A stretch of DNA of 64,000 nucleotides from Heteronotia binoei (taxonomy: Eukaryota). The position numbers are program-made. Shown here piece by piece: positions 9,001 to 12,000 of the stretch. The DNA lies in contig NC_083235.1 in NCBI RefSeq assembly GCF_032191835.1, positions 15,748,001 through 15,812,000 of the forward strand. The letters run 5' to 3'. Each line of letters starts with the position of its first letter. Within the stretch, counting starts at the first letter, position 1.

Positions 9001-12000
9001 CCCAGCTGTGCCACGGAAGTTTGCAGGACAACTTGGGGCCAGCCACGTTATTGTAACTTAACGTACCCCACAGTGTAAGTCATGTTGGGCCCCCATTTGG
9101 AGAGGAAAATGAGGTAAAATGAAGTAAATAAATTAGTGAGGAAGTAAAGCGTAAGGTGGGACCTTGTACCAGCTATTACAACAGAGACTTTTAGAAAAAG
9201 GCATTCAGAAGGAAGACCCTCCAAGGGCGTTCTGAGGGAGGACCATCTAAAGACATTCAGAAGGAAGTCCCTCCAAGGGCATTCAGAGAGAGGCCCATAT
9301 AACGACATTCAGAAGGAAGTCCCTCCAAGGGCGTTCTGAGGGAGGACCATCTAACGACATTCAGAAGGAAGTCCCTCCAAGGGCATTCAGAGGGAGGTCC
9401 ATCTAAAGACACTCAGAAGGAAATCCCTCCATGGGGATTCAGAGGGAGGTCCATCTAAAGATATTCAGAAGGAAGTCCCTCCAAGGCATTCAGAGAGAGG
9501 TCCATCTAAAGGCATTCAGAAGGAAGTCCCTCTAAGAGCATTCAGAGGGAGGTCCATCTAAAGGCATTCAACAGGAAGTCCCTTCAAGCGGGGAGGTCCA
9601 TTCAGAGAGAGGTTCATCTAAGGGGAAGGTCTTACATGCTAGTCAGGGTAGCTACCCCACCATCCATCACTGCTCTACACGAGCTATTCTATGCCACTTT
9701 CACCCCATTCCTGGCCCCCAGTGTTGGCTGTCCAGATGTCCAGCCACTGGGTGCCCCCTGCCCCCAATCAGCCCCCCAACACCAAAGAGGGCAACAAACA
9801 AACAAAAACAATCCTGAGTGTTAATGTTCTGATAGGAAACAAGGGAGTGGGGAGGATATATTGTGCACCCAGTCTCTGACTCTTTCTTTGGGATCTCTTG
9901 CTGCTGTTCTATTCCAAACGTTTGTGTGTGTTAAAGAAGAATCATACCATAAACATGCTAATTTGCTTCAGCCTCTGGGGTCCTGTCTCAGAACTATTCC
10001 TCAAGAACTTCCGGTTTGGATTTCATGGAGAATTGACGAACTTTCCAGTGGGGGAGCTCACCAGACGCTCTATTCTGGACAGAGAAGGTGTTTTAATACC
10101 TGCTGTCTACATCATCTAGGCAAGATGATGGCCAAGATATGCTTAAAGTTCTGAGGAGAGGTACTTTGGCTAACGTGAAATCCCGTGTGTGTGTGTGTGT
10201 TTTTTGGCTTTGAAGAGTCTCCGGAAAAGTACCACTTCCAACGTTTATAGAGGTTATCTGGGGTTGTTAAATCGACATAAATTCAACGTGTGCCAAGCTT
10301 CTTAAGGGCTAATTAATCGTGGATGAGAAACAGACCAGTGTGTTTTATGTCGGGACTTCAAAGGTAAAGAGATTTTTATCTGTTGCTCCAGGACTAAATT
10401 GGGAAATATTTTGAAGGCAAACGAAGGTCTGGACACATAAACAACTTGTACTAATAAAGAAGGAGGAGGAGGGGGAAATCTTGGACTCAGTTAAACAGAT
10501 ATAAGGCTTAAAAAAGCAAAAGCTGATATTGTTTTGAATTTTTGTGGTCACTCCCCCCGAAAGTGGAAGAACTGCAGCTCAACAAGTCATTACAGGAAAT
10601 GACGTCTGGGCATGGGAACATCGTGAGACTTTACAACCATAGATAACAAGACTTTGTGGCAAGTGTAGGCGGAAGAGGCCATCAAGGGAAGGAAAAACTA
10701 CAGGTTTTTTTAAGCCCCTTTAGGACTAAACCATAGAGAAACATCGAGCACCATTTTGGAAATTATAACCCCTTTAAAAATTAATATCTGGACCCAGGGA
10801 CATAAAGGATGGCGATTTTGGGCTTTTCTTAAAGGGCATGCCGTAATCTACAACACTAGACCATTTAAAAAGAACTTGGTGACTTCAGTTGTAAAGTCTA
10901 TATTTATAATGGGCAGGCAGTCATGTCAGCCCAAAAACCATTACAGACAAGATCTAAGACACTAGAAGAGGGCTGATAAAAAAGAACAGACGGATACCAT
11001 GGAAGCTAGATTGTCTAATCTGATTCAAGATTCTATTAGTGATTGTAAGAAGTAATTAAAAAAAAGATATAGAAGTTCTCAGTAAAGAGTTTAAGTCAGT
11101 ATCCGAAAAAATCCAAGAGGTGGAAGAGAAAGTGAAAGACCATGATGAAAGAATTAATACAGTGGATTCCACTATTAAAAAATTTCAGGACAAAGCAGTA
11201 CTGCAGGACTGCAAATCAATGGAAAATCAGATACGTTTGAGAGGTGTGCCTGAAAAGGATGATGATTTAAGGAAATACATAATAAGGATTATTGCTGAAT
11301 ATGTTGGCAATGATCCTGAGGAGACTAATTACTTTTATGACTATATTTACAGGGTCAATTCAGAATATACAAGGGAAAATAAACTACCAAGAGATGTGGT
11401 AGTGAGATGTGTAAACAAGAGACTTGGTGGGAAGGATTCTAAGAACTATTCCTCAAGGGACGGCTCAGGAGGAAACCTGGCTGAGCCATTCTCTGGGTAT
11501 CACATCCCTGAAGGGTGCCAAGCCATGAACAAAAGCTCATGCAGCTACCAGACCACCTTCTCTTCATGCAATAGCTGTTTGTCAGATCTGCTCAGCAGAA
11601 GGAGGCTTGTGTTAACCCAGAGGAAAAAGCCAAATATATTCCCTCCATCCTGATCTCTCCGTGGGATGGTCCCTCCGTTCTTCAACACCTACAGACTCAC
11701 AGACTCACAGACTCTGCTGCTGCTGCAAACAGAAAGCATCTTTTTGGGGTAGACTTTACCAACTGGGTAAGTAGGAGCCCTGCACGCACTTTTCTTCTTG
11801 TGTTCTCAGAGAAAAAAATGCTTCTCTGTCAGAACATTGCTCATTCTAACTGCCATCTCCTCATCTGTAGACAGCTTCTCAAAGCAGGAGACAGTGAGTA
11901 GTGTGTCCACTGCCATTGAGCAGTGAACAAAATGGAGCTGCCTCATGTCCTTTCTGATGGGTGTCATCGGGAGGAGGAAGAGCCATGGGAAGGGGGGGGA

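What the first reader, a model, noticed from the sequence alone, without database searches (positions are those of the whole stretch)
9990..11457. 5'-intact, 3'-truncated, tail-less L1 with a perfect 16-bp TSD inserted in a putative OR promoter
Seen: 1436 bp with an L1-type 5' end and half of ORF1, stopping abruptly; no ORF2 or poly(A), yet flanked by an exact TSD. Units A (about 1350-1366) and C (about 32697-32712) show the empty site. Known: TPRT normally gives 5'-truncated, tailed copies; internal priming is a rare documented route. Inference: internal priming, possibly on microhomology at the target's agaac. The TSD overlaps an O/E-like site, which is regenerated downstream, so about 1 kb of sense L1 promoter now sits directly upstream of the presumed OR-B exon 1.
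Basis: partly seen in the sequence, partly recalled or inferred. Interest (0 to 1): 0.65.

Follow-up and report, generated by a model that had tools for sequence, protein, structure and literature searches.

The report
Tail-less truncated L1 copy, gecko
The front 1.4 kb of a jumping gene (an L1 retrotransposon) sits between two perfect 16-base duplications upstream of a gecko smell-receptor gene; it lacks the usual poly(A) tail, which is a rare but already described way for such elements to insert.

Summary
A 1436-bp insert (10006-11441) lies between exact 16-bp direct repeats (9990-10005, 11442-11457). The two paralogous units carry the site once and uninterrupted.

The insert is the 5' part of an L1-type element:
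- It starts with the same 9-nt motif, at the same offset, as a canonical full-length L1 in this window.
- A 993-nt leader follows, then an ORF1 piece. A profile made with its relatives matches solved LINE-1 ORF1p.
- Homology stops at about 58% of the ORF1 profile, inside the RNA-binding domain. There is no ORF2, no A-tail and no terminal inverted repeat.

Two ordinary L1s in the same window have about 11-A tails and 14-16-bp duplications. The duplication length therefore fits L1 integration, and only the 3' end is unusual.

Best reading (0.7): target-primed reverse transcription that began inside the L1 RNA, or on a tail-less truncated one. This is a known class.

Not supported or untested:
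- Microhomology at the junction could not be tested, because no same-family copy was reachable.
- The 'O/E-like' site is no better than chance.
- The promoter role is inferred only.

The window is gekkotan, not human. Interest is low to moderate.

The parts
9990..10005 (.). Left copy of the 16-bp target-site duplication (AGAACTATTCCTCAAG)
   Evidence: Exact match to 11442-11457. Present once at the paralogous empty sites.
10006..11441 (+). The insert: the 5' 1436 bp of an L1-type non-LTR retrotransposon, 3'-truncated and without a tail
   Evidence: Absent from units A and C. No second copy in the window. ORF1 homology. No ORF2. No A-tail and no terminal inverted repeats.
10007..10015 (+). ACTTCCGGT at element positions 2-10, a terminal motif shared with full-length L1 no. 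2 (47084-47092)
   Evidence: 3 exact matches in the window against 0.15 expected; 0 of 100 shuffles reached 3. Two of the three lie at 5' ends defined by target-site duplications.
10006..10998 (+). 5' leader (UTR-like), 993 nt
   Evidence: Lies upstream of the only ATG-led frame that precedes the ORF1 homology. CpG observed/expected is 0.49 against 0.13-0.19 in the flanks. No Rfam match and no tandem monomers.
10999..11441 (+). ORF1 remnant (coiled coil plus the first part of the RNA-binding domain). Broken gene: 3'-truncated, and at least one frameshift separates the start-codon frame from the main frame. The 127-codon main frame holds no stop.
   Evidence: Translations. 126 relatives at E<=1e-3. 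A profile that includes the fragment hits LINE-1 ORF1p 2ykp_A at E=6.5e-12. The fragment scores 117.6 bits on a profile of 58 relatives, positions 101-203 of 350.
11442..11457 (.). Right copy of the 16-bp target-site duplication
1351..1366 (.). Empty site in paralogous unit A (1 mismatch)
32697..32712 (.). Empty site in paralogous unit C (exact)
11458..11766 (+). Conserved block downstream of the insert, ending at a consensus splice donor (CTGG|GTAAGTAGG, GT at 11767-11768). Candidate promoter-proximal region and non-coding exon 1 of OR-B (inferred).
   Evidence: Alignment of units A, B and C. The donor is shared by A and B and is missing in C.
29629..30570 (+). OR-B coding exon, intact (313 codons from the ATG). 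It lies about 18 kb downstream of the insert, because about 13 kb of nested retroelements sit in between.
   Evidence: Pfam 7tm_4 E=1.5e-55. Unit map. Conserved acceptor before the ATG. Gecko OR relatives at 82-86% identity.

Best explanation
A single L1-mediated retrotransposition event copied only the 5' 1.4 kb of an L1 RNA into unit B, after units B and C had duplicated.

Shown:
- The insert sits between duplicated target bases.
- It begins at an L1-type 5' terminus.
- It carries the ORF1 coiled coil and the first part of the RNA-binding domain.
- It stops there, with no ORF2 and no A-tail.

Inferred:
- An L1 endonuclease nicked the bottom strand at CTC|AGAAC.
- The freed 3' end (...GTTCT-3') annealed inside the A-rich ORF1 region of the RNA, or at the end of a truncated RNA without a poly(A) tail, instead of on a poly(A) tail.
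- Reverse transcription ran the short distance to the 5' end of the RNA.
- A second, staggered nick 16 nt away produced the duplication.

The copy can encode nothing useful: ORF1 is incomplete and frameshifted, and ORF2 is absent. Its only conceivable effects are on the neighbouring OR-B gene. It moves the conserved upstream block, including a 52-bp tandem array, 1.45 kb further from the putative exon 1, and it places an L1 leader in sense orientation upstream.
For: - Target-site duplication and empty paralogous sites.
- Duplication length: 16 bp here. The two canonical, A-tailed, full-length L1s in the same window have 14-16 bp and 16 bp.
- Nick-site context: CTC|AGAAC here and CTC|AACTG at L1 no. 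2. This is 4 of 6 positions of the TT|AAAA consensus quoted in PMC5322556.
- 5' end: ACTTCCGGT at element positions 2-10 in both the insert and L1 no. 2.
- ORF1 identity: 126 relatives. Profile hits to LINE-1 ORF1p structures 2ykp, 2yko, 2ldy and 2w7a. 98.5% hhalign probability to the ORF1 of L1 no. 1 in the window.
- Truncation point: 123 of 126 relatives align in one frame. The median alignment end lies at 0.58 of the relative's length, among the 57 relatives of 230 aa or more. The fragment covers HMM positions 101-203 of 350.
- No tail and no ORF2.
- Precedent (passages read in PMC5322556): 3'-truncated tail-less L1-mobilised copies with target-site duplications are known. A relaxed human screen gave 708 full-length, 90 3'-truncated and 5,593 doubly truncated tail-less L1 forms. 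The green anole was the only non-mammal in which tail-less retrocopies were found.
- Precedent (PMC5402677, passages): describes internal priming and cites Srikanta et al. 2009.
Against: - The key prediction of internal priming, that the source RNA continues with bases complementary to the primer, could not be tested. No second copy exists in the window and no same-family protein is in the protein collection (best relative 43% identical).
- Reading on in frame into the repeat and flank adds no profile score.
- The last 16 nt of the insert (11426-11441) are not covered by the profile alignment. They fit no frame of the next conserved ORF1 motif, so filler or diverged sequence at the 3' junction cannot be excluded.
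- The nick site is only a 4-of-6 match to TT|AAAA; I estimate about 6% by chance (own arithmetic, no call).
- Pfam Transposase_22 is below its cut-off for the fragment: 13.6 against 22.4 bits. It is also below cut-off in all 13 relatives scanned, and was reported at all in 3 of the 13.
- 16 of 16 identity of the duplication does not date the event. At the 11% B/C divergence it would occur with probability about 0.155 (own arithmetic).
Confidence: 0.7

Rival explanations
1. A longer, A-tailed L1 inserted normally. A later deletion then removed everything from mid-ORF1 to the end of the tail, ending exactly at the right copy of the duplication, for example through a few bases of microhomology.
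For: It would give the same final sequence. The last 4 nt of the insert (TCTA) resemble the 4 nt upstream of the target (TCTC), and the junction reads ...CTA|AGAAC, so short homologies are present. PMC5322556 notes that for Alu monomers such recombination is hard to tell from internal priming (passage).
Against: It needs two events. The right breakpoint must fall exactly on the tail/duplication boundary among kilobases of possible positions. No trace of a tail or 3' UTR remains and there is no ORF2 remnant nearby.
Confidence: 0.1
2. Endonuclease-independent capture: an L1 cDNA or RNA fragment was used to patch a pre-existing staggered break, which happened to leave 16-nt overhangs.
For: 3' truncation and a missing tail are typical of such events. 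[quoted passage not shown] The 16 unassigned nt at the 3' junction could be filler.
Against: The duplication is clean and exact, with no target bases lost relative to unit C. Its length equals that of the canonical L1 insertions in the window. The nick context is the same CTC|A as at L1 no. 2.
Confidence: 0.08
3. The 1436 bp are a complete copy of a non-autonomous 'front-half' family that spreads with this 3' end.
For: Not excluded. No eukaryotic DNA collection was available, so copy number and shared 3' ends could not be examined.
Against: There is no second copy in 64 kb. The 3' end has no tail or repeat of the kind a reverse transcriptase would recognise. The end falls in the middle of a protein domain.
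Confidence: 0.05
4. Assembly artefact: a full-length L1 was collapsed or mis-joined.
For: The window does hold masked or gap stretches (5 N runs), and young repeats are hard to assemble.
Against: No N lies within 6 kb of the insert. The mis-join would have to land exactly on the boundary of a perfect 16-bp duplication. The flanks match units A and C base for base across the site.
Confidence: 0.05

Closest known systems
Tail-less, internally primed L1-mobilised retrocopies (Noll et al. 2015, PMC5322556, passages read; Srikanta et al. 2009, seen only as a reference in PMC5402677; the paper itself is not held)
   Same: The copy is 3'-truncated relative to the source RNA, has no A-tail, is flanked by a target-site duplication of L1 length, and is 5'-complete. 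The source RNA here is an L1 itself; Noll et al. counted 90 such 5'-full-length cases in human under relaxed criteria.
   Different: The host is a gecko, not a mammal or an anole. The nick site is less A-rich (TC|AGAAC against TT|WAAAAWW). Complementarity between target and source RNA could not be shown.
Canonical full-length L1 insertions in the same window (L1 no. 1 at 14794-20989; L1 no. 2 at 47083-54305)
   Same: Duplication length (14-16 and 16 bp), sense-oriented 5' start, ORF1 of the same superfamily, and, with L1 no. 2, the same terminal motif and CTC|A nick context.
   Different: Both comparators carry AATAAA plus a tail of about 11 A, and ORF2. The insert has neither. There is no nucleotide similarity beyond the 9-nt motif, so it belongs to a different family.
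Endonuclease-independent L1 insertions
   Same: 3' truncation and absence of a tail.
   Different: As described in PMC5402677, those lack target-site duplications and endonuclease-type sites and often carry extra sequence. Here the duplication is perfect and no target bases are lost.
HAL1 'half-L1' non-autonomous elements (recalled from memory; no call)
   Same: An L1 derivative with ORF1 sequence and no ORF2.
   Different: As I recall, HAL1 keeps a whole ORF1 and an A-rich 3' end and is multi-copy. Here ORF1 is cut inside its RNA-binding domain, there is no tail, and only one copy is seen.

Membership tests
L1-clade non-LTR retrotransposon | ORF1 protein of the coiled-coil + RRM (+CTD) type | tested here: met
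   A profile of the fragment plus 11 relatives hits LINE-1 ORF1p 2ykp_A (E=6.5e-12), 2yko, 2ldy and 2w7a. hhalign gives 98.5% to the ORF1 of L1 no. 1. Only the coiled coil and the first part of the RRM are present; the CTD is missing through truncation.
L1-clade non-LTR retrotransposon | Pfam Transposase_22 above the gathering score | tested here: not met
   13.6 bits against a cut-off of 22.4, E=0.086. None of the 13 relatives scanned reaches the cut-off; the best is 21.8 bits. The model seems to fit this non-mammalian branch poorly.
L1-clade non-LTR retrotransposon | ORF2 with APE endonuclease and reverse transcriptase | tested here: not met
   Absent from this copy and from 8000-14130. This is expected for a truncated copy. 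The clade of the parent's ORF2 is therefore unknown.
L1-clade non-LTR retrotransposon | A-rich 3' tail | tested here: not met
   The insert ends ...GGATTCTA, and the longest A-run (8) is internal.
L1-clade non-LTR retrotransposon | Target-site duplication of roughly 7-20 bp | tested here: met
   16 bp, exact. The in-window L1s have 14-16 and 16 bp.
L1-clade non-LTR retrotransposon | 5' terminus of a full-length family member | tested here: inconclusive
   Shares ACTTCCGGT at positions 2-10 with L1 no. 2 (3 matches against 0.15 expected), but nothing else. No member of its own family was available.
Tail-less / internally primed L1-mediated retrocopy | 3' truncation, no tail, flanking target-site duplication | tested here: met
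Tail-less / internally primed L1-mediated retrocopy | The start of the target site is complementary to the source RNA just past the breakpoint | not testable with these tools
   This needs full-length copies of the same family. None is in the window or in the protein sets. The indirect protein-level test was negative.
Tail-less / internally primed L1-mediated retrocopy | L1 endonuclease-type nick site | tested here: inconclusive
   TC|AGAA matches 4 of 6 positions of TT|AAAA (consensus as quoted). The context is the same CTC|A as at L1 no. 2.
Endonuclease-independent L1 insertion | No target-site duplication, often with loss of target bases | tested here: not met
   Exact 16-bp duplication and no loss relative to unit C.
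DNA transposon / LTR element | Terminal inverted or long terminal repeats | tested here: not met
   No inverted or direct repeat at the two ends of the insert apart from the duplication itself.
OR promoter with an O/E (EBF) site | Match to TCCCNNGGGA (consensus recalled from memory) | tested here: not met
   The site is a 2-mismatch match: 273 such matches in the window against 266.8 expected. It is absent from the 23 matches with up to 1 mismatch.
OR promoter with an O/E (EBF) site | Transcription start and non-coding exon 1 just downstream | not testable with these tools
   There is only sequence-level support: a donor about 310 nt downstream in A and B and a conserved acceptor before the ATG. 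No expression data were available.

The most novel reading that the evidence does not exclude
Gecko L1 lineages start with an ETS-type motif at their very first bases. This stranded L1 leader, now in sense orientation about 1.75 kb upstream of the OR-B splice donor, would act as a second promoter, giving L1-initiated OR-B transcripts (for example in the germ line). At the same time the copy would be direct evidence that a gekkotan L1 reverse transcriptase can prime without a poly(A) tail, extending to Gekkota the 'relaxed' L1 behaviour predicted for lizards in PMC5322556.
Probability: 0.1. Interest if true: 0.5.

Novelty: new member of a known kind. Interest (0 to 1): 0.25.

Why it matters
This is a clean single-locus example of L1 integration without a tail. 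Two paralogous empty sites and two ordinary L1 insertions in the same 64 kb serve as internal controls.

Its value is as a data point:
- It suggests that at least one gekkotan L1 lineage can prime without a poly(A) tail. So far this has been described for therian mammals and, among non-mammals, only the green anole (PMC5322556, passages).
- It points to a conserved 9-nt start motif shared by two otherwise unrelated L1 families.

Any effect on the olfactory receptor gene is speculative. The copy itself cannot encode a functional product.

Tried and rejected
- Another copy of the insert in the window: none (blastn, word 11, E<=1e-3).
- Same-family proteins: the search for homologous proteins 'longer' and 'near' found nothing. 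The best of 126 HMMER representatives is 43% identical.
- ORF1 homology running into the repeat or flank: 8 of 123 tblastn alignments run past 11441. The profile test shows no gain (-0.7 bits; 326 of 400 nulls as good). Rejected as chance.
- A frame change near the 3' end that would rescue the next conserved ORF1 motif: peptides of the last nine codons gave no profile alignment in any of the three frames. Dropped.
- The last 16 nt as templated filler: 3 other 13-of-16 matches in the window against 0.72 expected. One lies on the ORF2 start of L1 no. 2 (50367-50382), but the surrounding bases differ. Treated as coincidence.
- Chimera with a small RNA: no Rfam match at E<=1 in 9700-11800.
- Monomeric tandem promoter repeats: none; only a (GT)8 and one short 8-nt repeat lie inside the insert.
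- Premature polyadenylation: an AATAAA lies 58 nt before the end, further than the usual spacing as I recall it, and there is no A-tail. Judged unlikely.
- Wider 5' similarity to the other L1s: none beyond the 9-mer. With 1 mismatch allowed the motif is at chance level, 8 matches against 7.15 expected.
- Srikanta et al. 2009 is not held.
No eukaryotic DNA collection was available.
- Supplements of PMC5322556, which may list lizard and L1 tail-less cases, were not opened.
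Full report
**1. What is in the sequence**

The 16-mer AGAACTATTCCTCAAG stands at 9990-10005 and again at 11442-11457, enclosing 1436 bp. With up to two mismatches it occurs four times in the window against 0.06 expected, and 0 of 100 shuffles reached 4. The other two matches are 1351-1366 and 32697-32712.

These lie in two paralogous units. There the flanks of unit B continue without interruption and the 16-mer is present once (alignment A1). This is a filled site with two empty-site controls, so the repeat is a genuine target-site duplication and no target bases were lost.

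The repeat finder extends the repeat to 20 nt with one mismatch: the last four bases of the insert, TCTA, resemble the four bases upstream of the target, TCTC. By my arithmetic a match of 3 or more in 4 has about 5% probability by chance, so I give it no weight.

No N run is near the insert.

**2. Setting**

The window is not mammalian and not human.
- It carries four intact olfactory receptor genes (7tm_4, E from 1e-53 to 1e-58).
- It also carries APE/RT non-LTR elements of several kinds, a Ty3/gypsy-type pol and a copia-type gag/RT (19 ORFs scanned).
- The nearest named relatives of OR-B are ORs of the gecko Heteronotia binoei (82-86% identity), followed by other geckos.

A blastn map shows how unit C (31911-37673) matches unit B:
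- 9202-10005, then the insert, then 11438-11745;
- 13400-14111, then about 13 kb of nested retroelements;
- 27432-27816, 28570-29210 and 29367-30659.

The OR-B coding exon (29629-30570) therefore lies about 18 kb downstream of the insert.

B/C identity is 89% and 88% on either side of the insert. Other non-coding pieces show 86-96%, and the coding exon 95.8%. The flanking block is thus not unusually conserved between B and C. Between A and C it is one of only three alignable stretches, at 84.7%, compared with 83.9% for the coding exon.

**3. What the insert is**

*5' end.* The insert starts A-ACTTCCGGT. A canonical full-length L1 in the same window, L1 no. 2, spans 47083-54305. It has a 16-bp duplication (47067-47082 and 54306-54321) and a tail of about 11 A. 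It starts G-ACTTCCGGT. The 9-mer occurs three times in the window against 0.15 expected, and 0 of 100 shuffles reached 3. Two of the three occurrences lie at positions 2-10 of an element whose first base is fixed by a duplication. Nothing else in the two leaders is alike, and with one mismatch allowed the motif is at chance level. The 8-mer ACTTCCGG appears in a table of motifs over-represented near vertebrate transcription starts (PMC3021792, one passage). That its reverse complement is an ETS-type site is my recollection. I read this as good, though narrow, evidence that the insert begins at a true L1 transcript start.

*Leader.* The leader is 993 nt long. It has no Rfam match and no monomer repeats. 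Its CpG observed/expected ratio is 0.49, against 0.13-0.19 in the flanks.

*ORF1 (10999-11441).* One ATG-led frame is followed by a 127-codon frame without stops, so there is at least one frameshift between them.
- A 107-codon piece of the main frame finds 126 proteins at E<=1e-3 among 1.84 billion representatives. Of these, 14 are at <=1e-10 and 0 at <=1e-30; the best is 43% identical.
- Pfam Transposase_22 stays under its cut-off for the fragment (13.6 against 22.4 bits). It is reported below cut-off in 3 of the 13 relatives scanned and not at all in the other 10.
- A profile of the fragment with 11 relatives hits solved LINE-1 ORF1p chains: 2ykp_A at E=6.5e-12, also 2yko, 2ldy and 2w7a.
- The same profile matches the ORF1 of L1 no. 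1 in this window at 98.5% hhalign probability.

*Truncation point.* 123 of 126 relatives align to the insert, all in one frame. For the 57 relatives of 230 aa or more, the alignment ends at a median 0.58 of their length. On a profile of 58 relatives the fragment scores 117.6 bits over positions 101-203 of 350. The copy therefore ends inside the RNA-binding domain; the rest of that domain and the C-terminal domain are missing.

*What is absent.*
- ORF2: there are only two chance-level hits in 8000-14130.
- Any A-tail.
- Terminal inverted or long terminal repeats.
- A second copy in the window.

**4. Internal controls**
- L1 no. 1 (14794-20989) is nested in a CR1-like element. It has the duplication AAGGGGTAAATTCT (plus up to two A), AATAAA and a tail of about 11 A, and it inserted at TTT|AAAA. 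Its ORF2 is broken twice, by one frameshift and one stop.
- L1 no. 2 inserted at CTC|AACTG. Its ORF2 is an open 1252-codon frame.
- The insert went in at CTC|AGAAC.

Duplication length and nick context thus match ordinary L1 integration in this genome, and only the 3' end differs.

**5. Mechanism**

The simplest account is target-primed reverse transcription that started without a poly(A) tail. It began either inside the A-rich ORF1 part of the RNA (40% A) or on a truncated RNA. It then ran 1.4 kb to the 5' end.

This class is documented. PMC5322556 (passages) describes thousands of tail-less, duplication-flanked retrocopies.
- For human L1 itself it reports 708 full-length, 90 3'-truncated and 5,593 doubly truncated tail-less forms under relaxed criteria.
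- It reports up to 17 nt of target/RNA complementarity.
- The green anole was the only non-mammal in which tail-less copies were found.

PMC5402677 (passages) summarises internal priming and cites Srikanta et al. 2009, which is not held.

No same-family sequence could be reached, and the in-frame read-through adds no profile score. The last 16 nt are not covered by the profile alignment, so they may be diverged ORF1 or junction filler.

The rivals are given with their weights in the Rival explanations section: a later deletion, capture at a staggered break, a front-half family, and an assembly collapse.

**6. The olfactory-receptor angle**

About 310 nt downstream of the insert, units A and B share a consensus donor (CTGG|GTAAGTAGG). 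Unit C has lost that stretch. All three units share a CTAAC branch point, a pyrimidine tract and a CAG acceptor a few bases before the ATG. A non-coding exon 1 just downstream of the insert is therefore plausible.

Only the coding exon was searched, on its own. The putative exon 1 is non-coding and was not searched.

As a match to the recalled consensus, however, it is at chance level. Whether the L1 leader drives OR-B is untested. Two AATAAA and two ATTAAA hexamers lie on its sense strand.

**7. Verdict**

This is a new instance of a known kind of event. Interest is low to moderate.

**8. What stayed unchecked**
- Genome-wide copies of the family, because no eukaryotic DNA collection was available.
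- Source names of the relatives.
- Supplements of the papers.
- Any expression or read-level data.

Literature searches were used as listings only, except for the passages named above and passages of PMC3787681 on anole L1 copy numbers. None of the ten papers listed holds 'internal priming' together with squamate terms; that listing covers 10 of 1,176 papers.

Noticed in passing
14794-20989: Full-length L1 (no. 1) nested inside a CR1-like element, whose APE part is at 14139-14867 and whose RT part is at 21186-22960. It has a 14-16-bp duplication, AATAAA and a tail of about 11 A. Its ORF1 is open (315 codons). Its ORF2 is broken twice (one frameshift, one stop).
   Followed up: partly
47083-54305: Full-length L1 (no. 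2) with a 16-bp duplication and a tail of about 11 A. Its ORF2 is an uninterrupted 1252-codon frame with APE and RT domains. Its ORF1-like frame runs into an isoleucine-coding microsatellite. A reverse-transcriptase ORF of another element lies on the opposite strand at 48355-49569, inside its bounds. Described only.
   Followed up: partly
13375-13383 (minus strand): Third exact ACTTCCGGT, in a stretch of about 245 bp specific to unit B, 1.9 kb downstream of the insert. Part of that stretch (13156-13307) is 80% identical to 59362-59513, but that copy does not start with the motif. Whether this is another stranded L1 5' end is unknown.
   Followed up: partly
735-975, 9197-9588, 31961-32300: A 52-bp (2 x 26) tandem array with 4.7, 7.6 and 6.6 copies lies 400-800 bp upstream of the insertion site in all three OR units. 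It holds the matches to the recalled O/E consensus (up to 1 mismatch) that lie nearest the site (784, 9428, 32134, 32186, 32238).
   Followed up: no
33001-33110 against 11746-12269 and 1650-2777: Unit C lacks a stretch shared by units A and B that includes the consensus splice donor. If that donor ends exon 1, OR-C would need another donor.
   Followed up: no
12651-12906: A 258-nt stretch that is 91.5% identical to its own reverse complement (a long hairpin-like palindrome), followed by a 71-bp unit repeated twice at 12957-13098. Possibly a small DNA-transposon-like insert in unit B.
   Followed up: no
23530-26632: Ty3/gypsy-type pol (protease, RNase H, integrase zinc-binding and core domains) read as three or more successive frames, so it is broken. 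It is part of the roughly 13-kb retroelement cluster inside the putative OR-B intron. Described only.
   Followed up: no
40149-42730: Copia-type gag (Retrotran_gag_2) and RVT_2 reverse-transcriptase fragments on the plus strand.
   Followed up: no
11426-11441 against 50367-50382: The last 16 nt of the insert, which no ORF1 profile alignment covers, match 13 of 16 bases around the ORF2 start codon of L1 no. 2. The neighbouring bases differ. There are 3 such matches in the window against 0.72 expected. Probably coincidence.
   Followed up: yes
11120-11653: The ORF1 frame stays open for 70 codons beyond the insert into the flank, giving a 177-codon ORF. The flank part has no ORF1 homology, so this is taken as chance.
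   Followed up: yes
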